NCBI GenBank assembly: GCA_944391735.1
Contig: CALXUR010000005.1
Coordinates: forward strand, 6,428-70,427
Origin: an uncultured Alphaproteobacteria bacterium
GTDB lineage: Bacteria; Pseudomonadota; Alphaproteobacteria; CAAHEQ01; UBA3637
Direction of reading: 5' to 3'
Length of the DNA stretch: 64,000 nt
The stretch's first letter is position 1. The number at the start of each line of letters is the position of its first letter. Under the pieces are notes generated by a model. It ran no database searches and had not been told where the DNA came from. It saw only the letters and a program-made list of their open reading frames with translations. A program made the position numbers and the translations under genes. Positions 282 through 20,400 of this stretch are shown here, piece by piece.

Positions 282-1556
282 TTATCCAGTTAATTCTGCA
301 TTATAAGTGCTTGTTTCTGCATTATTTTTTGATATTTCGCCACTTTCTAGCAGAACAGCCTTTTTACCGGTCCAATCTTCCCATCTTTTTACGATAACAT
401 CGCAGTATTTCGGGTCCAATTCCATCAATCTTGCGACTCGACCGGTCTTCTCACAGGCGATTAAAGTCGACCCGGAACCGCTAAATCCGTCCAAAACAAT
501 CTCGCCAACCTTGGAACTGTTGTTGATAGCGCGCTCAACAAGCTCGACCGGTTTCATTGTCGGGTGCAGGTCATTGTGCTGTGGCTTGTTATATTCCCAA
601 ATGTCGGATTGGTTCCGGTCACCACACCAATAGTGAGGCTTGTCGCTCACCCAGCCGTAGAGGATAGGTTCATATTGCCGCTGATAGTCAGCTCGGCCCA
701 AGGTAAAGGTGTTCTTGGTCCAAATGATAAAGGTGGACCATTTGCCGCCGGCTTTCACAAATGCCGAGTAAAGGGTGTGAAGTTCAGACGAACTCATGCA
801 AACGTAAGCGGCACCTTTGCAATACATCAGCATATTGGTGCAGGCATCGTAAAGGAACTGCTCGAAATCTTCGCCCAGGTTGTCGTTCATAATGGTGCGG
901 CCATGGTTCGGACTGGTGTGATAACGGAGTTTGTCTTTCATCGTTGCGCCGTAGTTAACATTGTATGGCGGGTCGGTAAAGATCATGTCGGCCACGTCGT
1001 TTTGCATTAACTTTTTGAAATCGTCTATCATGGTCGTGTCGCCGCACATCAACCGGTGGTTTCCCAACTGCCAAACGTCACCATGCTTGGAGGTAGGTTC
1101 AACCGGGGCCTCGGGAACCTCATCATCTTCGGTGTTACCAGTGTCCTGAATTTCGCCAAAGTTCTCGAGGGCCTTTAGTTCATCATTGGTAAAGCCGAGA
1201 TTAGTTAAATCAAAGTCCTCGTCTTTCAGCTCGCCGATTTCCAATGCCAACATCTTTTCATCCCAACCAGCGTTGAGGGCGATCCGGTTATCGGCAATGA
1301 CCAAGGCTCGGCGTTGTGTTTCGGTTAAGTCCGGTAAGACGATGACCGGGACTTCTGTCAAACCTAAGCGTTGAGCCGCCAAAAGTCTGCCATGTCCGGC
1401 AATGATAACGTTGTCCGAGCCGATAAGGATCGGGTTGGTAAAGCCGAACTCCTTAATACTGGCCATAATCTGTGCTACTTGCTCATCATTGTGCGTGCGC
1501 GAGTTGCGTGCGTAAGGGATAAGTTTATCCACTGGAAAATTCTGTTGAAATTCCAT
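282..1556 (-). CDS. ParB-like N-terminal domain fused to N6/N4 DNA methyltransferase
   Basis: ParB-like LIPYARNSRTH...IIAGHGRLLAA; catalytic DPPY; HPTMKP and VLDGFSGSGSTLIACE SAM-binding motif (beta-class order). Start moved to MEFQQ at 1556 (RBS GGAG). Confidence 0.92.
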   Translation of the reverse strand: MEFQQNFPVDKLIPYARNSRTHNDEQVAQIMASIKEFGFTNPILIGSDNVIIAGHGRLLAAQRLGLTEVPVIVLPDLTETQRRALVIADNRIALNAGWDEKMLALEIGELKDEDFDLTNLGFTNDELKALENFGEIQDTGNTEDDEVPEAPVEPTSKHGDVWQLGNHRLMCGDTTMIDDFKKLMQNDVADMIFTDPPYNVNYGATMKDKLRYHTSPNHGRTIMNDNLGEDFEQFLYDACTNMLMYCKGAAYVCMSSSELHTLYSAFVKAGGKWSTFIIWTKNTFTLGRADYQRQYEPILYGWVSDKPHYWCGDRNQSDIWEYNKPQHNDLHPTMKPVELVERAINNSSKVGEIVLDGFSGSGSTLIACEKTGRVARLMELDPKYCDVIVKRWEDWTGKKAVLLESGEISKNNAETSTYNAELTG

Positions 1557-1589: not shown

Positions 1590-1691
1590 GTGACCACCCA
1601 AAATTACAAAGTGACCACCCAAAATTTTAATTCGTTGTTATAACTATTTGATATTACTTTATTTTTAGGTGACCACTGACCACCCAAAATT
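1590..1691. repeat. Three direct repeats TGACCACCCAAAATT (1591, 1612, 1677) plus a partial GTGACCAC (1669); cosB R-site-like
   Basis: Exact 15-bp copies read from the sequence, immediately downstream (minus strand) of the cosN-like site. Confidence 0.75.
1641..1653 (-). promoter_or_regulatory. IHF-binding consensus site
   Basis: Minus strand TATCAAATAGTTA matches WATCAANNNNTTR exactly and lies in an AT-rich gap between two of the repeats. Confidence 0.6.
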
Positions 1692-1714
1692 TTTGTGTTT
1701 TGCTAGAAAAATGC

Positions 1715-1758
1715 CGCGGCTTGGACCCCCGCATACGATCCGAAGCGAGGAAGGACCC
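1715..1758 (-). other. Lambda-like cosQ + cosN packaging site
   Basis: Minus strand GGGTCCT (same as lambda cosQ), a 17-nt spacer, then ATGCG-GGGGTCCAAGC-CGCGG (lambda cosN: TTACG-GGGCGGCGACCT-CGCGG). Confidence 0.7.
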
Positions 1759-1819: not shown

Positions 1820-2866
1820 TTAGGCAACAAGTTTGTCTTCCTGAACCGGAACGATAGTCAACGTCTGCAAAGTCTTGCGGCATAATTTGGTGTAAATCGG
1901 TCGATCCAAGCCGAAGAACTTGATTAAAGTATTCGGTTTTTGGTTGCAAACAAGCGGACTATTCGTAACAACACCGTTCTTAACAGTCCGGATCAAGCCG
2001 CTGGGCAGTTCAGACTTGCCGATGCAAGATGAAAGGTAGACGAAGCATTCATCATTGTCGCCAAGATGTTCGGTTGCAAGGTAACGTGCGTAGACATTCA
2101 ATGTTAAGTCAGCCTTGCTCGGGTCCTTGGTCCATGGCGAACCACCGCCAATCGGGCAGGCGGTAGAATAGAAGTCGCACGCTAATTTCCGACCGGTAAT
2201 ACCACAGTCGGCAATGGATGAATGGAATTGATAAATGCCTGTGCCATTCACGATGATGGACTTTAGCTCTTGTCCGAGCGCATCAACGACAAATGGTTTG
2301 ATGTCTTCCGGTTCCAGCATAGGTATGGCAACTATGGCAGTCACTATGTCACCGGTTGCATCATCTATGGTAATTTGTGTTTTTATGTCGAGGCCAAGGT
2401 TAGATGATGTCTTTGCATGTTCATAAAGAGCATTATTTAGTTTGCGTGCCAGCCATAACTCGCGGTTGATTAAGCCCGGTCCTTTGCAGGCATAGCCCAC
2501 AAACACGCCTTGATCTCCCCATCCATCGCGCTCGACACCTTGGTTGATGTCGGCCGATTGGACCCCGATTTTGTTTATGACCTCTATATGTCGAACATCT
2601 ATGGCATAATTTTTCCATATACTAGAGTAATGTTCATCATAACCGATTTCTCGGAGAGCATTGCAGACATATGTTTCGATGTCTGACATATCTACCGAAC
2701 CTTTGACCTCACCACCGAGCATAACGCAGTTATCTTTGATCATAACTTCCACAGCGTAATGAACGCCGGGATCCTGCTCGATAAGTCTGTCTAAAATGTA
2801 ACTTGAAATGTAATCGGCTGTTTTATCCGGGTGGCCGATAGACACCGCTTCAGCTGTTTTCAGCAT
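1820..2866 (-). CDS. Divergent S-adenosylmethionine synthetase-like protein (prophage copy)
   Basis: MetK motifs GHPDK, GDQG, DCGITGRK and KDPSKAD. Canonical GAGDQG and GGGAFSGKD are replaced by GWGDQG and GGGSPWTKD. RBS AGGAG. Confidence 0.85.
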   Translation of the reverse strand: MLKTAEAVSIGHPDKTADYISSYILDRLIEQDPGVHYAVEVMIKDNCVMLGGEVKGSVDMSDIETYVCNALREIGYDEHYSSIWKNYAIDVRHIEVINKIGVQSADINQGVERDGWGDQGVFVGYACKGPGLINRELWLARKLNNALYEHAKTSSNLGLDIKTQITIDDATGDIVTAIVAIPMLEPEDIKPFVVDALGQELKSIIVNGTGIYQFHSSIADCGITGRKLACDFYSTACPIGGGSPWTKDPSKADLTLNVYARYLATEHLGDNDECFVYLSSCIGKSELPSGLIRTVKNGVVTNSPLVCNQKPNTLIKFFGLDRPIYTKLCRKTLQTLTIVPVQEDKLVA

Positions 2867-5160: not shown

Positions 5161-6873
5161 TTATGCTGGGTTAAAACCGAGTTCACGTCTTTGATCTTCC
5201 CATGAGTAAGGGAAGTGATCCCGGATTAGTCTTCGTGCAGTCAGTAATTTGGGCTGTCTACCTTCTATAATTGCCATTATGATGTCCGGAGCTAATGTCG
5301 TAAGCCTTAAGATTTGTCCCATGTATCCACGATCTAATTTTTCTCTTTTTGAGAGTTCACTGAGGGATATCTTTTGGTCATCCATAACTTGTTTATAGTA
5401 AAATGCCTGAGTAACAGCATTGTAAAGCTTCATATCTCTTTCGCATGTTTCACCACTTGGCTGATTAGGTTCAACAATCTGAACACACCCGCGTTTACGT
5501 CCGAACTTTATAGGATAACTTAATTCAAGGAGTTTTTCATTATAATGACTGTCTTTCTCAATTGCACCGCGTTCAAATAAGTCTGCGCTCATCGGCCTAA
5601 GTTTTATTATAATATGATCAGTATAAACGATGACTTTTTCAACAACTTCTGTAATAAACTCGTGTACAGTGGCTGGCTCGAAGTACTGGAAAGCTTGGCC
5701 AATATCCTGCACTATGTTGTGAACATCTGCACCATTAAAGTCTTCATTTTGCCGCTTAAATTCTTTCAGTAGTTCTTCCTGTAGTTCCGGTGTTTGAAAA
5801 ATCTTTTTAACCTTGTCTAAAACAAAATTATCAATTGCACCGGCTGGAATACTTCCAATTTGGCAATGGGCGTTATTTGCACCTTCTTTAACAGCCTTCA
5901 AGGAAGTGTAGTACTCATAATATTTATTACCTCTCTTACTTCGGGTTGGGGTCATTGTTCCACAACACGAGCATTCAAGTAGACCTTTCAACAAACTGTT
6001 TTTAACAGAGCGGCAAGGTCTGAATGCTGTTCCAATGTTGTCTTTTTTTACTTTTCTTGTTTCATCCCAAAGTTCCTGAGTGATGATCGCTTTGTGCTGT
6101 CCCTTATACAACTCTCCCTTATAAGGAACCATTCCAATGTATATCGGGTTATTAAGGATATTGGATATCATCGCATGGTTAAACATCTCACAGCCAACAA
6201 TTTTTCCTGTTTTTGTTTTCCATGTTTTCGGCTTGAAGCCTTTTTCGTTCAGATCTTCCACCGTTCTTATTTGAGATCTTGTTCTCTTATAGTCCTCAAA
6301 AATGAATCGTATTGTTTCAGCCTCAGCCGGGTTTATTACCAACTTTTTATTATTAACGTCATATCCAAGTGGGATAGCCCCACCAGTCCACATGCCTTTT
6401 TTCTTACTGGCCGCAATTTTATCGCGGACACGTTCCGCACCAAGCTCACGCTCAAATTGTGCAAATGACAGCAGAATATTTAATGTTAACTTGCCCATGG
6501 AATCGCAAGTATTAAAGTGCTGTGTCACAGATACGAATGAACAATTATTCTTTTCAAAAGTTTGAACTAATTGTGCGAAATCAAGGAGTGAACGTGTTAA
6601 TCGGTCTATCTTATAGACGACAATCATGTCCACTTTGCCTTTTTCTATGTCAGCCATCAACCTTTTCAATGCAGGCCTTTTTAAGTTACCACCGCTAAAG
6701 CCACCATCATCGTATCGATCAGGGAGGATTATCCACCCCTGGTGCTTCATACTCATTACGAAGTTTTCGCCAGCTTCGCGTTGGGCCTCAAGTGTATTGA
6801 ATTCCTTTTCAAGACCTTCATCTGTTGATTTACGAGTGTAAATTGCGCATCTTATTTGTTTTTGTTCTTCCAT
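5161..6873 (-). CDS. Large serine recombinase (resolvase + recombinase + Zn-ribbon-like domains)
   Basis: RCAIYTRKST catalytic Ser motif, YDDGGFSGGNLKRPALKRL, VYKIDRLTRS, and Cys pair CSCCG. Confidence 0.93.
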   Translation of the reverse strand: MEEQKQIRCAIYTRKSTDEGLEKEFNTLEAQREAGENFVMSMKHQGWIILPDRYDDGGFSGGNLKRPALKRLMADIEKGKVDMIVVYKIDRLTRSLLDFAQLVQTFEKNNCSFVSVTQHFNTCDSMGKLTLNILLSFAQFERELGAERVRDKIAASKKKGMWTGGAIPLGYDVNNKKLVINPAEAETIRFIFEDYKRTRSQIRTVEDLNEKGFKPKTWKTKTGKIVGCEMFNHAMISNILNNPIYIGMVPYKGELYKGQHKAIITQELWDETRKVKKDNIGTAFRPCRSVKNSLLKGLLECSCCGTMTPTRSKRGNKYYEYYTSLKAVKEGANNAHCQIGSIPAGAIDNFVLDKVKKIFQTPELQEELLKEFKRQNEDFNGADVHNIVQDIGQAFQYFEPATVHEFITEVVEKVIVYTDHIIIKLRPMSADLFERGAIEKDSHYNEKLLELSYPIKFGRKRGCVQIVEPNQPSGETCERDMKLYNAVTQAFYYKQVMDDQKISLSELSKREKLDRGYMGQILRLTTLAPDIIMAIIEGRQPKLLTARRLIRDHFPYSWEDQRRELGFNPA

Positions 6874-6884
6874 GGTTACTCCTT

Positions 6885-7283
6885 TTATTTATCTAATGCA
6901 AAAAAATACCGTCCGGATATCTTTCTACCGGTAATTTTTTTTGCTACTGCTGATAGCGAGGTATACTTCATTCCATTGTATTCAAAACCATCGCGTAGAA
7001 CTGTGACAATGTGTTCTACACCAAGATACTCGCGGACAATCCTTGTACCGGTTGGCGGTAAGTTGTTTCTGTTTTCCGGCGGAATGTACATGTTAGCTAT
7101 TAATTTTTGTTGGCTTGCCGATAGTCCTCCATAAGCGAGTTCTTGTATCTTATACGCTATGCGTGATACATAGAACTCTTTATTTAGGGAGAATGGCTTT
7201 ACATCAAAATACTTTTGCCATAAAGCCTGAAGCTCAACCAGTGACTTCCGCTCTAAAAGAGCTATTTGCATTGATACTTGCAT
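6885..7283 (-). CDS. DUF2924 family protein
   Basis: LQALWQKYF...RIAYKIQELAYGGL...PPTGTRIVREY.GVEHIVTV..DGFEYNG..Y.SLSAVAKKITG; typical partner gene upstream of this recombinase family. Confidence 0.85.
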   Translation of the reverse strand: MQVSMQIALLERKSLVELQALWQKYFDVKPFSLNKEFYVSRIAYKIQELAYGGLSASQQKLIANMYIPPENRNNLPPTGTRIVREYLGVEHIVTVLRDGFEYNGMKYTSLSAVAKKITGRKISGRYFFALDK

Positions 7284-15157: not shown

Positions 15158-16090
15158 CTAAATTTTCATAATTTTTATTTCTTTTTTCAATACGTTAAAC
15201 AACAAAGGACTACTGTGTCCTTTATCCGGCACAATCACTAATTTGGATTGAGGCAAAACCCGATGTAAATCAAAGGCTTGTTCAACGGGACAACAAAAAT
15301 CCAATCGATTATGAACAATCAAAGTCGGAATATTTTGAATTCTTTGAATATTCTGTAAAAGTTGATTTTCCTGAACGAAAAAATGATTTTTTTCATAATG
15401 CAGGTAAATCCGCATAAAACGAATGGAGGCATCCGTCAAGGCCGGTGTTTCATTAAAAGAAGCCTCCGTTTTTCCCAACATTTTTTCATAAACGGCGTAA
15501 TATTTCTGAACTTGTTGTAAGTCTTTATATTTATCCGAAAAAATCAAGCGATGATAGAATGAGACAATATCGTCTGTTCCGGCCTGTCGCCTCATTTCAT
15601 CAATTAAATCGGGGTAAAACAAACGGCTGGTATGAGAAACCCATCTGGCGTCTTGTTCTCGCATTAAAAAAACAGAATTCAAAATCAACCGGTTAACACG
15701 CTTCGGATACGTTTCGGCAAACAAAAGAGCCAAGCCTGCCCCATAGGATCCGCCGGCAACAGTTACCTTTCCTTTGATTTTCAAATAGTCCAACAGCTCT
15801 TTTCCATCTTGAACCGCGGCCGGAGCCGTGTTGTCTTTCAATAAATCGCTATAGCGCGACAATCCGCACCCGCGTTGATCAAACATAATAACGCGCCATT
15901 GTTTCAAATCATAATGAGAAGCGTGTTTTGCCTTACCGCATCCGCCCGGACCACCGTGAAAAAGCAGGACTGCCTGCCCCTTGGGATTACCGAATTGCTG
16001 ATAATAAATATCATGTCCCGAACCAACAGAAAGCCAACCGACATGATAAGGTTTTGGCTCTTTTTTACCGAAAAATAAAAACATATTCAA
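15158..16090 (-). CDS. pip: Proline iminopeptidase (alpha/beta hydrolase S33)
   Basis: FHGGPG, FDQRGCGLS, GGSYG nucleophile, DFCCP, GHS. Confidence 0.85.
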   Translation of the reverse strand: MNMFLFFGKKEPKPYHVGWLSVGSGHDIYYQQFGNPKGQAVLLFHGGPGGCGKAKHASHYDLKQWRVIMFDQRGCGLSRYSDLLKDNTAPAAVQDGKELLDYLKIKGKVTVAGGSYGAGLALLFAETYPKRVNRLILNSVFLMREQDARWVSHTSRLFYPDLIDEMRRQAGTDDIVSFYHRLIFSDKYKDLQQVQKYYAVYEKMLGKTEASFNETPALTDASIRFMRIYLHYEKNHFFVQENQLLQNIQRIQNIPTLIVHNRLDFCCPVEQAFDLHRVLPQSKLVIVPDKGHSSPLLFNVLKKEIKIMKI

Positions 16091-16105
16091 TCTCCTGATA
16101 TCAGA

Positions 16106-17944
16106 TTATGTTAATTTTTCCGATAATACAAGCCATTTTTCTTCTAAATCATCGATTTGTGTATTTAATTGTCTTAACTCTTCTGTTATGGAGCGAATTT
16201 GATCCGGTGTCAATGGCGTTTCAAAAGAAGATTCAAGATCTTTTTTACGGATGCTTAATCGTTCTAACTCCCTTTCCAAAAGCCCCATTTGCGCCCGAAC
16301 CTGACGTATTTCGGCAGATGCGTGAGTCTTATAAACGGATTTTGTCTGGGACAGTGTTTTTGTTTTTTTATTATTTTGTGTTAAAGGCGCAGGTTCCAAC
16401 AATTGTTTTTTATAGGTCGCCAAATCACCATCGAACGGCCGACAAGAACCGTCTTGAACCAACCATAAATCCTCGGCCGCCAATTCGATTAAATTTAAAT
16501 CGTGGGCAATCAGGATAACACTGCCGTCATATGCGTTCAACGCATCAATCAAAGCCTCCCGCCCCTGAATATCCAAATGGTTCGTCGGTTCGTCCAAAAT
16601 CAAAAGAGCCGGTTCCCGTATTGTCATGCGCGCAAATAAAAGACGTGCTTTTTCGCCGCCGGATAAGTATTCGATACGTGTTAACGCCCGTTCTCCGGTT
16701 AATCCAAATCTGGCCAAATGTGAGCGCAGTTTTGTTTCCGTCGCCTCGGGCAACAAACGGGACATGAACAATAAAGGCGTTAACGCCAAAGGTAACTCTT
16801 CCGTTTGATGCTGGGCGAAATAACCGATTTCCAACTGTGACGACCGACGCACGGTTCCCTCCATCGGATCTAACCGACCGACAAGCAATTTTGCCAAAGT
16901 TGATTTACCGTTTCCGTTAGCCCCCATCAGAGCGATACGATCATGCGCCCCGATTGAAAAAGATAATTTTCTTAATACGGGGGAACCGTTATATCCGACG
17001 CTGACCTGATCTAACGTCATCAAAGGCGGTGCCAAACGAGCCGGTGGCGGAAATGTGAATTGAAAATCGGCTTTTCCCGGCAAATCGGGTAAATCTGCCA
17101 TTTTTTCCAATTGCTTTAAACGACTTTGAGCCTGCCTGGCTTTTGTCGCCTTATAGCGAAACCGGTCAACAAAAGATTGCAAATGCGCTTTTTTTTGAGC
17201 CTGATGCGCAATCTGTTTGGCCAATAAATCCAGTTGAGCGGCATACGTTCTTTGAAACGTATCGTAATTCCCTGTGTATAATGTCAATTTTTGCCGATCA
17301 AAATAAACGATATGATCACACAGTTCGTTTAAAATCACCCGATCATGGCTGACCAAAATCAAAGTACCGTCATATTTTTTCAAATGAGTCAGCAACCATA
17401 AGGTTGATTCCAAATCCAAGTGGTTAGTCGGTTCATCCAAAAGTAAAATTGTTGAGGGTTGAAATAAAGCTGCCGCCAAAGCCAACCGCATCCGCCACCC
17501 TCCTGAAAATTCAGCGACAGGGCGGTGCAGATCCTCATTCTTAAAACCAAGACCGTTTAAAATCCGGGCGGCTCGCGCCGGTGCGGCATCCCCATCATGC
17601 AACCGCCATTGCTCTAAAAGATCCGGACGCTCCATATCAGAAGCCTCGGTTAACTTTCGGGACAACTCGGCCAAGTCTGTATCTTGAGACAAGACGTAAT
17701 CCAAGACAGGGATATTCGTATTTAAAAACTCCTGTGCCACAGACACAATCCGCGCATTGTTCGGAAAAGAAATCCGACCGCTTTCAATATCCATTTCATG
17801 ACGAAGAACACGAAACAAAGTTGATTTGCCGCAACCGTTCAGCCCGACAACCCCCACTTTTTGACCATCCGATACATGAAGTGACGCGTGATCCAACAGG
17901 ACACGGGAACCGATACGAACCGTAACATCATTTATATCAATCAT
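16106..17944 (-). CDS. ABC-F family ATP-binding protein
   Basis: Two ABC cassettes (GLNGCGKST, FSGGWRMR, LLDEPTNHLD; GANGNGKST, LSGGEKAR), no TM segments, coiled-coil tail. Start at MIDI. Confidence 0.92.
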   Translation of the reverse strand: MIDINDVTVRIGSRVLLDHASLHVSDGQKVGVVGLNGCGKSTLFRVLRHEMDIESGRISFPNNARIVSVAQEFLNTNIPVLDYVLSQDTDLAELSRKLTEASDMERPDLLEQWRLHDGDAAPARAARILNGLGFKNEDLHRPVAEFSGGWRMRLALAAALFQPSTILLLDEPTNHLDLESTLWLLTHLKKYDGTLILVSHDRVILNELCDHIVYFDRQKLTLYTGNYDTFQRTYAAQLDLLAKQIAHQAQKKAHLQSFVDRFRYKATKARQAQSRLKQLEKMADLPDLPGKADFQFTFPPPARLAPPLMTLDQVSVGYNGSPVLRKLSFSIGAHDRIALMGANGNGKSTLAKLLVGRLDPMEGTVRRSSQLEIGYFAQHQTEELPLALTPLLFMSRLLPEATETKLRSHLARFGLTGERALTRIEYLSGGEKARLLFARMTIREPALLILDEPTNHLDIQGREALIDALNAYDGSVILIAHDLNLIELAAEDLWLVQDGSCRPFDGDLATYKKQLLEPAPLTQNNKKTKTLSQTKSVYKTHASAEIRQVRAQMGLLERELERLSIRKKDLESSFETPLTPDQIRSITEELRQLNTQIDDLEEKWLVLSEKLT

Positions 17945-18041: not shown

Positions 18042-19406
18042 ATGTTATCTGCAGATGCGCACCGTTTAACAGACGGACATATAGCCCGCACACTTTTTAA
18101 GTTTGCCCTTCCCTATTTGGGCGCTAATTTCCTTGTGGCTCTTTATGGTGCAGCCGACGTTCTGATTGTCAGTTATTTTGCAAGTCCCGCAGCACTTGCG
18201 GCAACGTCCACGGGGGCGCAGGCCGTATTTACGATGATGGCTCTGGCAATCGGGTTAACACTGGGCGGAACCATTTTAATCGGGCAATATTTCGGTGCCA
18301 AAAAGGAAAAGGATGTTATTGAAACGATTCAAACGGTATTTTCCCTGTTTGCCATTACCGCTTTGATCGGTTCAGCCGTTATGTTCATTTTTGCCCGTCC
18401 GATCGCCGCACTTTTGGAAACACCGCCGGAAGCATTTCAAGGTGCCTGTCAATACATCATGATTTGCGGTGGCGGATTAATCTTTACTTTTGCTTATGAA
18501 TCGATCAGTGCCGTTCTTCGTGGTCTGGGAGATTCTAAAAATCCGTTAAAATTCATTGCGGCAGCTTGTTCAATGAATATCCTTTTAGACTTATTGTTTG
18601 TCGGGGGATTCAATTGGGGTGCCGCGGGTGCCGCAGCGGCAACCGTTATCTCCCAGGCATTCAGTGTTCTGGTGGCTGTTCTGTATTTACGACACCGAAA
18701 ATTTATCTTTGACTTTTCATGGAAGAGTTTCGGATTTCATTCTGAAAAAGCAAAAAAAATTTTACGTCTTGGTATTCCGTCCGCCATTCAACAAACCGTT
18801 ATTTTTACATCCTTTACCATTATGACCGCCATCGTGAACAAAATGGGAGTTATCGCTTCGGCGGCTGCCGGCATTACAACCAAAATAGACGGTTTTATGA
18901 TTATGCCGTCTTTGGCATTCGCCTCTGCCGTTTCGGTTATGACGGCACAAAACATCGGCGCACGCCAAATCAAGCGAGCAAAAGAAACATTCTATACCGG
19001 TTTTTTGATGGCTTTATGTTTTGGCGCACCGTCATTTTATATGATGTATCACCATGCGCCGACCGTGATGCGGCTTGTAACCGAAAATACCGATATTATC
19101 AACGCGGGTGCCGATTTTATGTTAGCCTATAGTCCCGATTGTATTTTGTTAAGCCTTGTTTTTTGTCTGAACGGTTTTTTAAATGGCAGCGGGCGAACCA
19201 CATTCACAATGACAAATAATTTAATATCCACTTTGTTCTTTCGGGTTCCCCTTATTTTCCAAGCAACAACTCTGTTTGCGGCAGGCTTTGCACTTCCGCT
19301 TTCTACGATACCGCAAATCATGTTATCTTTATTTTATTTTTACAAAGGATATTGGAAAAAATCCGTTATTGATAACCCAAGGAGAAAAAATGATCAAAAC
19401 AGCTGA
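18042..19406 (+). CDS. MATE family efflux transporter
   Basis: About 12 hydrophobic segments; LRGLGDSKNPL, NILLDLLFV..G.AGAAAATVISQ, AQNIGA. Confidence 0.92.
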   Translation: MLSADAHRLTDGHIARTLFKFALPYLGANFLVALYGAADVLIVSYFASPAALAATSTGAQAVFTMMALAIGLTLGGTILIGQYFGAKKEKDVIETIQTVFSLFAITALIGSAVMFIFARPIAALLETPPEAFQGACQYIMICGGGLIFTFAYESISAVLRGLGDSKNPLKFIAAACSMNILLDLLFVGGFNWGAAGAAAATVISQAFSVLVAVLYLRHRKFIFDFSWKSFGFHSEKAKKILRLGIPSAIQQTVIFTSFTIMTAIVNKMGVIASAAAGITTKIDGFMIMPSLAFASAVSVMTAQNIGARQIKRAKETFYTGFLMALCFGAPSFYMMYHHAPTVMRLVTENTDIINAGADFMLAYSPDCILLSLVFCLNGFLNGSGRTTFTMTNNLISTLFFRVPLIFQATTLFAAGFALPLSTIPQIMLSLFYFYKGYWKKSVIDNPRRKNDQNS

Positions 19407-20400
19407 ATTTGTTTCTTTAGGACATCCCGATAAAACGGCCGATTTTATTACCAGTTACATTTTAGACCGCTTGATTGAGCAAGATGAACTTGTTAAATAC
19501 GGTGTCGAAGTGATGATAAAAGACAACACCGTCGTGTTGGGCGGAGAAATTAACGGACATGTTGTTCTGAATGACCTGACAAGTTGGGTCAAAGAAGCGT
19601 TACGCCAAATCGGATATGATGAACACTACGCCTCTTTATGGGGAAATAACGCCGTCAACATCAACAAATTGAATGTTATCAATTTAATCGGGCTACAATC
19701 TCCGGAAATTAATCAGGGGGTCATACAAAACGGTTGGGGCGACCAAGGCGTGTTTGTGGGATACGCCTGTCAAGGTCCGGATTTTTTACCCAGAGAGTTA
19801 TCATTGGCGCGAAAGTTGGCAAATACATTTTACGAACAAGCCAAACAATCGGATTGTTTGGGGTTGGATATTAAGGCTCAAATCACATTGGATGAAGAAA
19901 ATCACATCGAAACGGCGATACTGGCCGTTCCGATGCGTCGGCCTGTTGACATTTCAAATGAGGAAATTGCCGCCGCATTAGGGGAACAACCTAAAAACAT
20001 CATTGTGAACGGAACAGGATCTTATACCACCCACTCTGCCGTTGCCGATTGCGGTATTACGGGACGTAAACTGGCATGCGACTTTTACTCAACCGCCTGT
20101 CCGGTCGGTGGCGGATCTCCATGGACAAAAGACGCCACAAAAGCAGATTTGACCTTAAATTTATATGCGCGAAAATTGGCAATTGACTTGTTACGGGAAA
20201 ATGACGAATGTTTCGTCTACCTGTCTTCGTGTATCGGCCGGAGTGAGTTGCCGAGTGCTGTTGTCAAAACAATTAAAAACGGGGTCATAAAGGTAAACAA
20301 TATTCAAATAAAACAAACCCCGAAAGACATGATTCAACAACTCGGTCTGAACAAACCGGTTTTCGCCGACATGTGCCGCACAGGTATTGTATTATATTAA
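19390..20400 (+). CDS. metK: Divergent S-adenosylmethionine synthetase-like protein (chromosomal copy)
   Basis: GHPDK, GWGDQG, DCGITGRK, GGGSPWTKD..KAD. Start at MIKT (RBS AGGAG) overlaps the MATE 3' end. Confidence 0.8.
   Translation: MIKTAEFVSLGHPDKTADFITSYILDRLIEQDELVKYGVEVMIKDNTVVLGGEINGHVVLNDLTSWVKEALRQIGYDEHYASLWGNNAVNINKLNVINLIGLQSPEINQGVIQNGWGDQGVFVGYACQGPDFLPRELSLARKLANTFYEQAKQSDCLGLDIKAQITLDEENHIETAILAVPMRRPVDISNEEIAAALGEQPKNIIVNGTGSYTTHSAVADCGITGRKLACDFYSTACPVGGGSPWTKDATKADLTLNLYARKLAIDLLRENDECFVYLSSCIGRSELPSAVVKTIKNGVIKVNNIQIKQTPKDMIQQLGLNKPVFADMCRTGIVLY

What the first reader, a model, noticed from the sequence alone, without database searches (positions are those of the whole stretch)
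1590..1758. Full lambda-style cos architecture (cosQ-cosN-R-IHF-R-R) in an alphaproteobacterial prophage
Seen on the minus strand: GGGTCCT (1758-1752), a 17-nt spacer, ATGCG^GGGGTCCAAGC-CGCGG with a GCGG-N9-CCGC dyad, repeat TGACCACCCAAAATT (1677), a perfect IHF consensus (1641-1653), then two more repeats (1612, 1591). Established: lambda cos has cosQ GGGTCCT ~17-18 bp before cosN (TTACG^GGGCGGCGACCT-CGCGG), and cosB has three terminase R sites with an IHF site between the first two. Inference: an 11-nt 5' cohesive end GGGGTCCAAGC, with packaging running leftward and terminase genes left of the window.
Basis: partly seen in the sequence, partly recalled or inferred. Interest (0 to 1): 0.7.

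Follow-up and report, generated by a model that had tools for sequence, protein, structure and literature searches.

The report
Lambda-type cos site in prophage

Summary

- **Terminase:** A lambda gpA-type large terminase, a small terminase and gpW lie just left of the window, as predicted.
- **Conservation:** A cosQ-cosN-I2 core (GGGTCCTTCC, ~12 variable nt, GTATGCG^GGGG..CAAGC^CGCGGCATTTTTCTAGCGAAAC) lies upstream of gpA-type terminase genes, on the same strand, in 55 of 81 genomic loci. It also occurs in at least 120 viral contigs. Conservation starts exactly at GGGTCCT.
- **Physical ends:**
  - Virion-sequenced Rhodobacter RcC phages (published 11-base 5' overhang) end ...ATGCG and begin GGGGGCGGAAG-CGCG.
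  - A 45-kb IMG/VR contig carries a 10-nt terminal repeat that exactly fills ATGCG^...^CGCG.
  - A profile of the family has its best hit in the whole lambda genome at lambda's cos junction.
- **Repeats:** The core of the downstream repeats co-varies with the small terminase's DNA-recognition helix.

It differs from lambda in four ways. The predicted overhang is 11 nt (GGGGTCCAAGC), not 12. All three repeats are direct. The small terminase shows no sequence similarity to Nu1. Cos lies 3.7 kb upstream of terS, with a ParB-methyltransferase gene as the first gene after it.

No reads were available to map the ends of this phage itself. Verdict: a real lambda-type cos site and a new member of a known kind.

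The parts
1752..1758 (-). cosQ-like heptamer GGGTCCT (extends to GGGTCCTTCC, 1758-1749)
   Evidence: Read directly. It is exact in 154 of 155 distinct family members, and conservation starts exactly here, with about zero information content upstream. It is identical to lambda's cosQ heptamer (PMC4669245).
1735..1751 (-). Variable spacer between cosQ and cosN
   Evidence: The sequence varies between relatives while the length is held: cosQ to nick is 27-29 nt in the family (29 here) and 30 in lambda.
1714..1734 (-). cosN: ATGCG^GGGGTCCAAGC^CGCGG. The predicted nicks lie between 1730/1729 (this strand) and 1719/1718 (opposite strand), giving the 11-nt 5' cohesive end GGGGTCCAAGC (1729-1719).
   Evidence: It aligns without gaps to the RcDormio and RcKemmy junction ATGCG|GGGGGCGGAAG|CGCG, whose published end type is an 11-base 5' overhang. 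An IMG/VR contig has the 10-nt terminal repeat GGGCGCGAGG exactly between ATGCG and CGCG. 'GCG^' is present on both strands, symmetric about the centre of the 11-mer. The round-2 profile hits the RcDormio junction at E 6e-8.
1697..1718 (-). I2-like conserved block CGCGGCATTTTTCTAGCAAAAC between cosN and the repeats
   Evidence: Information content is high across the family. The distance from the nick to CTAG is 23 nt in 95 of 97 members. Lambda has CGCGGGTTTTCGCTA in the same register. I2 is needed for packaging termination in lambda (PMC4669245).
1668..1691 (-). First cosB repeat AATTTTGGGTGGTCA (1691-1677, in the position of R3) with an abutting half copy GTGGTCACC (1676-1668)
   Evidence: The repeat is conserved in close relatives, and its core changes together with the TerS recognition helix in more distant ones.
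1641..1653 (-). IHF consensus TATCAAATAGTTA inside an A/T-rich spacer, between the first and second repeats
   Evidence: In relatives the consensus positions are kept while the NNNN positions vary (ATAG, GCAC, TAAG, TAAT). The host encodes three HU/IHF-family proteins, one scoring 109 bits against the IHF-beta model, whose cut-off is 120.
1612..1626 (-). Second cosB repeat AATTTTGGGTGGTCA
1591..1605 (-). Third cosB repeat AATTTTGGGTGGTCA, 21 nt from the second
282..1556 (-). ParB-N-domain / N6-N4 DNA methyltransferase fusion, the first gene after cos
   Evidence: PF02195 plus PF01555, and phrog_498 at E 6e-164. A ParB-like gene starts within 400 nt of cos in 46 of 55 loci. It is also gene 1 of the RcC phages.
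1820..2866 (-). [quoted passage not shown]
   Evidence: PF00438, PF02772 and PF02773, plus phrog_1569.
5161..6873 (-). Large serine recombinase (integrase). Together with DUF2924 (6885-7283) it marks the prophage edge. Host genes start at about 8355.

Best explanation
Window 1591-1758 (minus strand) is the cos site of a temperate phage with a gpA-type terminase, integrated in an uncultured gut alphaproteobacterium.

The mechanism below is inferred by homology with lambda.

1. The small terminase binds the direct repeats GGGTGGTCA through its N-terminal helix-turn-helix. A host IHF-like protein probably bends the A/T-rich spacer between the first and second repeats.
2. This places the large terminase on cosN. 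There it nicks both strands after GCG, 11 nt apart, leaving the 5' cohesive end GGGGTCCAAGC.
3. DNA is then translocated toward lower window coordinates. The ParB-methyltransferase gene enters first, then terS, terL, gpW and portal.
4. At the next cos on the concatemer, cosQ (GGGTCCT), cosN and the I2-like block trigger the terminating cut.

What is shown: the anatomy, its conservation, the neighbouring terminase genes, and physical ends in relatives. What is inferred: the protein-DNA contacts, the role of IHF, and the cuts in this phage itself.
For: - **Terminase genes:** gpA-type TerL, TerS and gpW lie 3.7-4.2 kb downstream on the same strand. TerL is 29% identical to lambda gpA (E 9e-57) and 47% identical to RcC phage TerL.
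- **Conservation:**
  - The element lies upstream of TerL, always on the same strand, in 55 of 81 TerL-anchored genomic loci from Alpha- and Gammaproteobacteria.
  - It also occurs in at least 120 IMG/VR contigs.
  - The reversed control pattern gave no hits in 41 genomes, against 20 real hits.
- **Sharp boundary:** Information content is about zero upstream of GGGTCCT and maximal in cosQ and GTATGCGGGG. Spacing is fixed, with nick to CTAG at 23 nt in 95 of 97 members.
- **Physical ends:**
  - The RcDormio and RcKemmy records end ...ATGCG and start GGGGGCGGAAGCGCG. Read pile-ups showed an 11-base 5' overhang (PMC8601537).
  - The family profile hits that junction at E 6e-8.
  - IMG/VR contig 3300028845_000052 (45,194 bp, with a gpA-type TerL 0.8 kb from the end) has the 10-nt terminal repeat GGGCGCGAGG exactly between ATGCG and CGCG.
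- **Lambda:** The best profile hit in the whole circularised lambda genome is its cos junction, in the right orientation (8.8 bits; the next best is 2.7).
- **Repeats track TerS:** The repeat core changes with the TerS helix.
  - LSAVQNA goes with GGGTGGTCA.
  - LNAVQTA goes with GGCTGGTCA.
  - AVRKA goes with GGTTCGCA.
  - AVHKA goes with GGTTAGCA.
  - AVMKA goes with GGTGGACA.
- **Natural swap:** Locus L080 keeps a 60%-identical ParB-methyltransferase, but has a strongly diverged TerS and unrelated repeats.
- **IHF motif:** It is conserved, with its N positions varying between relatives.
Against: - No read-level data exist for this phage. Only assembled Logan contigs were available. Those either run through cos or break there because a low-depth variant shares the conserved 30-mer.
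- The contig ends inside the portal gene, and the rest of the head and tail genes are absent from the 75%-complete assembly. Whether the prophage is intact is therefore unknown.
- Similarity to lambda cos is weak as plain sequence (profile E 0.13).
- TerS is not a recognisable Nu1. Its fold matches to winged helix-turn-helix proteins are not significant.
- The covariation between TerS and the repeats is confounded by shared ancestry.
- A ParB-like gene almost always sits next to the repeats, so a second binding partner is not excluded.
- That the overhang sits at the left end of the RcC records follows from convention and from the resemblance to lambda. The paper does not state it.
Confidence: 0.85

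Rival explanations
1. The site is cos by descent but is no longer used. The prophage would be defective, and the element a relic that no terminase now cuts.
For: The contig stops in the portal gene, and no capsid or tail genes are found in the assembly. The same genome holds a second cos copy at C1:9185-9248 with no terminase nearby. Several near-complete relatives have cos copies but no TerL.
Against: TerL, TerS, gpW, the ParB-methyltransferase and the visible 450 aa of the portal are all intact open frames. Phages that are 96-99% identical, with the same cos, occur in MAGs from several animal hosts and in many gut metagenome runs, which argues for recent mobility. The missing genes are explained by the contig end and the 75% completeness.
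Confidence: 0.12
2. The three repeats are, or are also, loading sites for the ParB-fold N-domain of the adjacent methyltransferase, in the manner of parS. They would not be purely small-terminase sites.
For: A ParB-like gene starts within 400 nt downstream of the repeats in 46 of 55 loci and is present in all 55. It is also gene 1 of the RcC phages.
Against: The repeat core tracks the TerS recognition helix. L080 has a conserved ParB-methyltransferase (60% identity) but a diverged TerS and unrelated repeats. The cos copy at C1 keeps its repeats with no ParB gene in the assembly. In 9 of 55 loci other genes separate cos from the ParB gene.
Confidence: 0.1
3. The stretch is an iteron-type replication origin, or the operator and promoter region of the late operon. 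Direct repeats in helical phase, an A/T-rich stretch and an IHF site would fit either.
For: The second and third repeats are 21 nt apart, the spacer is A/T-rich, and there is an IHF motif. A DUF6291 protein whose C1 paralogue matches DnaD-like helicase loaders is encoded 1.7 kb upstream.
Against: The repeats are always joined at fixed distance to the conserved cosQ-cosN-I2 core, which coincides with physical genome ends in relatives. The element travels with the terminase genes rather than with replication genes, which differ between loci. No sigma-70-like promoter or intrinsic terminator was found in 1300-2100.
Confidence: 0.03

Closest known systems
cos of Escherichia phage lambda (cosQ-cosN-I2-cosB with R3, I1, R2, R1), cut by gpNu1/gpA terminase (J02459; PMC4669245)
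   Same: The cosQ heptamer GGGTCCT is identical. 'CG^' nick sites lie on both strands, flanked by CGCGG. The I2 block TTTCGCTA/TTTTCTAG is in the same register (12 nt from the right nick). Three small-terminase-type repeats follow, with an IHF consensus between the first and second. The large terminase is of the gpA family and is followed by gpW and portal. Packaging direction runs from cosN toward the terminase genes.
   Different: The predicted overhang is 11 nt, not 12. cosQ to nick is 29 nt, not 30. All three repeats are direct, whereas lambda's R2 is inverted. TerS has no sequence similarity to Nu1. Cos lies 3.7 kb upstream of terS with seven ORFs between, instead of about 190 bp. The host is an alphaproteobacterium.
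Genome ends of Rhodobacter capsulatus phages of cluster RcC (RcDormio MW677510, RcKemmy MW677517; PMC8601537)
   Same: The junction ATGCG^GGGG...^CGCG is the same, and the alignment from ATGCG to CTAGCG needs no gaps. The 11-base 5' overhang was determined experimentally. Repeats of similar type (TTTTGGGTTTCCAC against TTTTGGGTGGTCAC) follow. A ParB-like gene is the first gene after cos, and several genes separate cos from terS. TerS is 31% identical (E 2e-28) and TerL 47%.
   Different: The RcC repeats are tightly packed with no IHF spacer. Their cosQ is degenerate (GGTTCTT). Their ParB protein lacks the methyltransferase domain. Their genomes are 64% G+C. The paper reports the end type but does not describe a cos architecture.
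Complex versus simple cosB of N15, Monarch, 21 and other lambda-like phages (PMC4669245)
   Same: cosQ, cosN and I2 are conserved while cosB repeats and the TerS recognition helix diverge together to set packaging specificity. The same pattern is seen here across 55 loci.
   Different: Those phages are enterobacterial, have 12-nt ends and use Nu1-family TerS. The present family spans Alpha- and Gammaproteobacteria and uses a phrog_57 TerS.

Membership tests
Lambda-type cos site (cosQ-cosN-I2-cosB) | Lies upstream of, and on the same strand as, a gpA-family large terminase gene | tested here: met
   TerL at C5:2058-3998(-) matches PF05876 (E 3e-94) and PF20454 (E 3e-86). It is 29% identical to lambda gpA (E 9e-57). 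In 55 of 55 loci that carry the element, it is on the TerL strand.
Lambda-type cos site (cosQ-cosN-I2-cosB) | cosQ heptamer GGGTCCT about 30 nt upstream of the top-strand nick | tested here: met
   GGGTCCT is at 1758-1752, 29 nt before the predicted nick. It is exact in 154 of 155 family members at 27-29 nt. Lambda has the same heptamer at 30 nt.
Lambda-type cos site (cosQ-cosN-I2-cosB) | cosN with symmetric staggered nicks that give a 5' cohesive end | tested here: inconclusive
   The dyad GCG^G...C^CGC is symmetric about the 11-mer. Homologous junctions are physical ends in RcC phages (11-base 5' overhang) and in an IMG/VR contig (10-nt terminal repeat). The ends of this phage itself are not mapped, because only assembled contigs were available.
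Lambda-type cos site (cosQ-cosN-I2-cosB) | Conserved I2 segment between cosN and cosB | tested here: met
   CGCGGCATTTTTCTAGCAAAAC (1718-1697). Nick to CTAG is 23 nt in 95 of 97 members. Lambda has TTTCGCTA in the same register.
Lambda-type cos site (cosQ-cosN-I2-cosB) | Complex cosB: three R sites with R2 inverted, and an IHF site between R3 and R2 | tested here: not met
   Three exact repeats and an IHF consensus are present in the right order. All three repeats have the same orientation, whereas lambda-type complex cosB has R2 opposite to R3 and R1 (PMC4669245; lambda sequence).
'Lambda-like phages' as defined by Feiss (12-base 5' ends similar to lambda's) | 12-base cohesive end with significant identity to GGGCGGCGACCT | tested here: not met
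   The predicted end GGGGTCCAAGC is 11 nt and shares mainly the leading GGG. The length is set by an ungapped alignment to RcC ends.
Nu1-family small terminase (Pfam Phage_Nu1) | Sequence membership in the family | tested here: not met
   There is no Pfam hit at E 0.01. BLASTP against lambda Nu1 gives E 20. A profile of 36 TerS sequences finds no Nu1 chain in the PDB. The protein belongs to phrog_57 (E 3e-22).
Nu1-family small terminase (Pfam Phage_Nu1) | N-terminal winged helix-turn-helix DNA-binding domain followed by helical oligomerisation and TerL-binding parts | tested here: inconclusive
   The AlphaFold model (pLDDT 80) has strand, helix, helix and a beta wing, then long helices. The best Foldseek matches are Xis/MerR-type winged HTH domains and two viral packaging-motor entries (7lwr, 7lw0), all with E > 0.2.
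IHF-assisted cosB | Host encodes IHF | tested here: inconclusive
   There are three HU/IHF-family genes. One scores 109 bits against the IHF-beta model (cut-off 120). None passes the IHF-alpha cut-off, and the genome is only 75% complete.

The most novel reading that the evidence does not exclude
The ParB/Srx-fold protein encoded as the first gene after cos could be a third, cos-associated component of packaging or of early infection. It sits within 400 nt of cos in 46 of 55 loci. It is also gene 1 of the RcC phages and the 'methylase' of Wolbachia phage WO. One possibility is a nucleotide-gated clamp or nuclease that loads at or beside the cosB repeats. Another is a methyltransferase that marks DNA as it is threaded into the capsid. 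Under this reading it would not be a mere passenger gene at the start of the late operon.
Probability: 0.15. Interest if true: 0.7.

Novelty: new member of a known kind. Interest (0 to 1): 0.4.

Why it matters
- **Annotation:** It fixes the packaging strategy (cos, 5' overhang), the map origin and the packaging direction for a prophage group common in uncultured gut Alphaproteobacteria of chickens, ruminants and humans.
- **Reach of the lambda core:** The cosQ-cosN-I2 core is not an enterobacterial peculiarity. It accompanies gpA-type terminases across Alpha- and Gammaproteobacteria. Overhang length drifts between 10, 11 and 12 nt, and the cosB repeats co-evolve with the small terminase. A short profile could therefore be used to call cos sites and genome termini in metagenomic phage contigs.
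- **Leads:** The same approach gives a candidate cos site for Wolbachia phage WO, and it flags cos-bearing elements that have no terminase.
- **Limits:** For specialists the mechanism itself is familiar.

Tried and rejected
- **Pairwise alignment to lambda cos:** only a 9-mer matched, no better than shuffles. Homology to lambda therefore rests on the family profile and on register, not on plain alignment.
- **Terminator or structured-RNA reading of the G+C-rich half:** no terminator or promoter consensus was found. The fold z-score is -0.98. There are no Rfam or tRNA hits in the window.
- **A better cos candidate directly upstream of terS:** the apparent 700-bp gap holds a small minus-strand ORF, a bidirectional terminator-like hairpin and a plus-strand 119-aa gene (phrog_10315). 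Only about 90 bp are non-coding, and no cos motifs are there.
- **blastn of the 76-nt core against 50,697 phage records:** nothing relevant.
- **Read-end mapping:** all 24 runs that hold the stretch are kept only as assembled contigs. In the best-holding run the unitig break at 1713-1742 is a graph branch caused by a depth-3 variant sharing the conserved core, not a physical end. No run with 'vir' in its library description could be listed.
- **Contig-end enrichment in IMG/VR:** only 1 of 120 pattern-bearing contigs ends at cosN. That one is informative.
- **Nu1 membership of TerS:** tested by Pfam, BLASTP, a PDB profile search and Foldseek. None was positive.

Full report
**Observation.**
On the minus strand the 263-nt gap between a SAM-synthetase-like gene (1820-2866) and a ParB-N/DNA-methyltransferase fusion gene (282-1556) reads as follows:

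...GGCGGGTCCTTCCTCGCTTCGGATCGTATGCGGGGGTCCAAGCCGCGGCATTTTTCTAGCAAAACACAAAAATTTTGGGTGGTCAGTGGTCACCTAAAAATAAAGTAATATCAAATAGTTATAACAACGAATTAAAATTTTGGGTGGTCACTTTGTAATTTTGGGTGGTCACCC...

- The 13-mer TTTTGGGTGGTCA occurs three times exactly here and nowhere else in 64 kb. Each copy extends to a 15-mer.
- A half copy, GTGGTCACC, abuts the first repeat.
- GGGTCCT occurs 2 times in the window against 3.4 expected. The IHF consensus occurs 12 times against 6.7 expected. Neither is remarkable alone.
- A direct alignment to lambda's cos recovers only CGGGTCCTT, no better than shuffled sequence.

The case therefore had to be made from context and comparison.

**Context.**
The window is C5:6428-70427 of a 1.0-Mb, 20-contig assembly that is 75% complete. 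The best-holding public run is a chicken-gut metagenome. Close relatives are labelled as uncultured gut Alphaproteobacteria.

Continuing leftward from the site on the same strand, the contig holds these genes:
- the ParB-methyltransferase gene;
- five small ORFs;
- one ORF on the opposite strand;
- terS (C5:3952-4461, phrog_57);
- a 646-aa gpA-type terL (C5:2058-3998; PF05876 E 3e-94, PF20454 E 3e-86);
- gpW;
- a portal gene that runs off the contig end (97.8% identical over 450 aa to a relative's portal).

On the other side lie DUF6362, DUF6291, a large serine recombinase (5161-6873) and DUF2924. Host sugar-nucleotide genes begin at about 8355.

The site thus sits inside a prophage, 3.7 kb upstream of terS. 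The region directly upstream of terS has only about 90 non-coding bases and no cos-like motifs.

**Conservation.**
Eighty loci encoding relatives of TerL were fetched.
- nhmmer with the 274-nt gap found a homologous stretch in 40 of them. A profile built from those hits found it in 55 of 81 loci including this one.
- The element is always on the TerL strand and lies 0.6-7.8 kb upstream of terS.
- The alignment begins exactly at GGGTCCT. Upstream sequence is unrelated even between fairly close phages.
- Over 155 distinct sequences, 154 have GGGTCCT exactly.
- The distance to the conserved GTATGCG^GGGG is 27-29 nt.
- The distance from that point to CTAG(C/T) is 23 nt in 95 of 97.
- Information content is near zero before cosQ, maximal in cosQ and GTATGCGGGG, low at positions 4-6 of the 11-mer, and high again in CAAGCCGCGG and TTTTCTAGCGAAAC.
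- It occurs in 12 of 41 related genomes. The reversed control pattern has no hits there.

Non-coding DNA this well conserved across loci whose TerL is only 52-65% identical, with hosts labelled Rickettsiales, Anaplasmataceae, Marinobacter and Gammaproteobacteria, must be a functional cis element.

**Physical ends.**
- **RcC phages.**
  - The closest cultured phages are the Rhodobacter capsulatus RcC cluster, with TerL 47% identical.
  - The paper determined their ends from read pile-ups of virion DNA and reports a '5' overhang 11 base' (PMC8601537).
  - RcDormio and RcKemmy both end ...AGGTTCTTCC(N13)CGCTATGCG (the N13 differs between the two). Both begin GGGGGCGGAAGCGCGTTAAGTCCCTAGCGTGACACG, followed by three TTTGGGTTTCCAC-type repeats and then a ParB-like gene as gene 1.
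  - The site here aligns to that junction without a gap, from ATGCG through the 11-mer, CGCG and 12 further bases to CTAGC.
  - The round-2 family profile hits the RcDormio junction at E 6e-8.
- **IMG/VR contig.**
  - Contig 3300028845_000052 is 45,194 bp, is classed linear, and has a gpA-type TerL 0.8 kb from one end.
  - It ends ...GGGTCCTTCCGGGCAATCGACGCTATGCG|GGGCGCGAGG and begins GGGCGCGAGG|CGCGAAGCG.
  - This is an exact 10-nt terminal repeat filling precisely the interval between ATGCG and CGCG, as expected for filled-in cohesive ends.
- **Lambda.**
  - The same profile was run over the circularised lambda genome.
  - Its best hit is lambda's cos junction in the correct orientation, at 8.8 bits (E 0.13 for that search). 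The next best hit scores 2.7 bits.
  - Lambda shares GGGTCCT, ACG^GGG, ^CGCGG and TTTCGCTA in the same register.

The nicks therefore fall after (A/G)CG on each strand. The overhang is whatever lies between them: 10, 11 or 12 nt in different lineages. In this site it is the 11 nt GGGGTCCAAGC (1729-1719). That the overhang sits at the left end of the RcC records is inferred from convention and from the lambda resemblance.

**cosB.**
Downstream of the core, each lineage has its own short direct repeats, and their core changes together with the predicted recognition helix of TerS.

| TerS helix | Repeat core | Where seen |
|---|---|---|
| G-V-N-L-S-A-V-Q-N-A | GGGTGGTCA | this phage and its close relatives |
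| L-N-A-V-Q-T-A | GGCTGGTCA | L009 and L010 (TerL 96% identical) and many others |
| A-V-R-K-A | GGTTCGCA | more distant loci |
| A-V-H-K-A | GGTTAGCA | more distant loci |
| A-V-M-K-A | GGTGGACA | more distant loci |

- L080 keeps a 60%-identical ParB-methyltransferase but has a strongly diverged phrog_57 TerS placed directly after cos, with unrelated repeats.
- The IHF consensus between the first and second repeats is retained in close relatives while its four unspecified positions vary (ATAG, GCAC, TAAG, TAAT).
- The host has three HU/IHF-family genes, one close to the IHF-beta cut-off.
- Other clades carry a 9-10-bp inverted repeat at that position instead.

**Differences from lambda.**
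- The overhang is 11 nt, not 12.
- All repeats are direct, whereas lambda's complex cosB has R2 inverted (PMC4669245).
- TerS is not a Nu1 by Pfam, BLASTP or PDB profile search.
  - Its model has an N-terminal winged-HTH-like unit.
  - Fold matches to Xis/MerR-type domains and to two packaging-motor entries are not significant.
- Cos is separated from terS by seven ORFs. A ParB-like gene is the first gene after cos in 46 of 55 loci and in the RcC phages.

**Rivals.**
- An origin or operator reading fits the phased repeats, the A/T tract and the IHF motif. It does not explain the fixed linkage to a core that coincides with physical ends, nor the co-travel with terminase genes.
- A ParB-loading reading cannot be excluded as an additional role. 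L080 and the ParB-less cos copy on contig C1 argue against it.
- A relic-cos reading remains possible because the prophage is truncated by the contig end. However, all visible packaging genes are intact, and 96-99% identical phages with the same cos occur in MAGs from several animal hosts.

**What could not be done.**
No raw reads are served for any run holding the stretch. Contigs either span cos or break at the conserved 30-mer because of a low-depth variant. The ends of this phage itself are therefore inferred, not observed.

**Novelty.**
The element is a lambda-type cos site: a known kind, in a phage group where it has not been described. Earlier notes of this scan reached the same reading for comparable cos and ParB-methyltransferase arrangements in other genomes. 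Those are unverified AI notes and were not used as evidence. The RcC paper reports only the end type.

**Side observations** (listed under Noticed in passing).
- A collinear element lies directly upstream of the ParB-methyltransferase gene of three Wolbachia WO phages.
- The same genome holds a second cos copy without a terminase, and relatives have cos copies with no TerL.

Noticed in passing
Own genome contig C1:9185-9420 (outside the window; locus L086): This is a second cosQ-cosN-I2 copy (profile score 60 against 68 for the window's site), with four CTGGCTGGTCA-type repeats and a palindromic spacer. It lies between a serine integrase plus a DnaD-like/DUF6291 gene and small ORFs. A type I restriction-modification cluster follows (HsdS-like and methyltransferase). 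The assembly holds no terminase or ParB homologue other than the C5 copy. It may be a remnant or a cos-bearing satellite.
   Followed up: partly
Relatives G003, G005, G006, G008 and G012 (genome search handles); G005:C16:10169 and 28596 (L222, L223): Several 94-99%-complete relatives carry one to three cos cores but no gpA-type TerL at E <= 1e-20. G005 carries the element syntenic to own C1, plus a second cos 18.4 kb downstream on the same strand, with accessory genes between (DUF488, GNAT, ASCH, kinase-like). Many hits lie less than 1 kb from contig ends, so loss of phage contigs during binning is an alternative to satellites.
   Followed up: partly
Wolbachia phage WO records: L208:4681-4744 (MN180251), L218:3151 onward (AB036666), L219:4692 onward (HQ906662): A conserved element lies directly upstream of the ParB-methyltransferase gene in three WO phages: GGGTCCTTTC...(C/T)TAG(C/T)GT(C/T)AGA. 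cosQ and the TAG block have the same 52-nt spacing as in this cos family, but the cosN part is diverged and the profile score is only 8.2 bits. It is a candidate cos site for phage WO. No paper in the searched library holds 'phage WO', 'Wolbachia' and 'cos site' together.
   Followed up: partly
Acidithiobacillus phage AcaML1, L209:1741-1807 (JX507079, about 16090-16156): The family profile hits (E 0.03) the intergenic gap upstream of gp23 and the two methylase genes, 5.9 kb upstream of the annotated gpNu1-like terS. This is the same cos, methylase, terS, terL layout.
   Followed up: no
Loci L017, L021, L022, L026, L027, L029, L035, L036 and L079, between the first and later cosB repeats: Where this phage has an IHF consensus, other clades have a 9-10-bp inverted repeat (for example AAACCCTTGCTACATAAGGGTTT or CTGAAAACCAAGCAAAACAAGGTTTTCAG). 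This may be a site for a different bending protein.
   Followed up: no
Window 19390-20379 (+) and own C1:27001-27693: Further SAM-synthetase-like paralogues are present, 63% and 71% identical to the prophage copy at 1820-2866. The C1 copy is truncated. An extra serine integrase lies at C1:23560-24882. Together these suggest more phage-derived islands in this small genome.
   Followed up: no
Contig C5:1354-1830 (left of the window): There is a 477-bp insertion with a 118-aa ORF of unknown function between gpW and the portal gene, relative to the 95%-identical phages in L006, L007 and L030. L011 and L008 have a different insertion of about 360 bp at the same point.
   Followed up: no
Locus L080:5225-5928: In this relative, terS (phrog_57, E 1e-31) follows cos directly, as in lambda. 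The methyltransferase genes lie between terS and terL, so the gene order around cos is rearranged within the family.
   Followed up: partly
Window 1713-1742 in run X1: The assembly graph of the best-holding run branches exactly at the conserved cosN core, because a depth-3 variant from another phage shares the 30-mer. Conserved cos cores may be a general cause of contig breaks in these MAGs.
   Followed up: no
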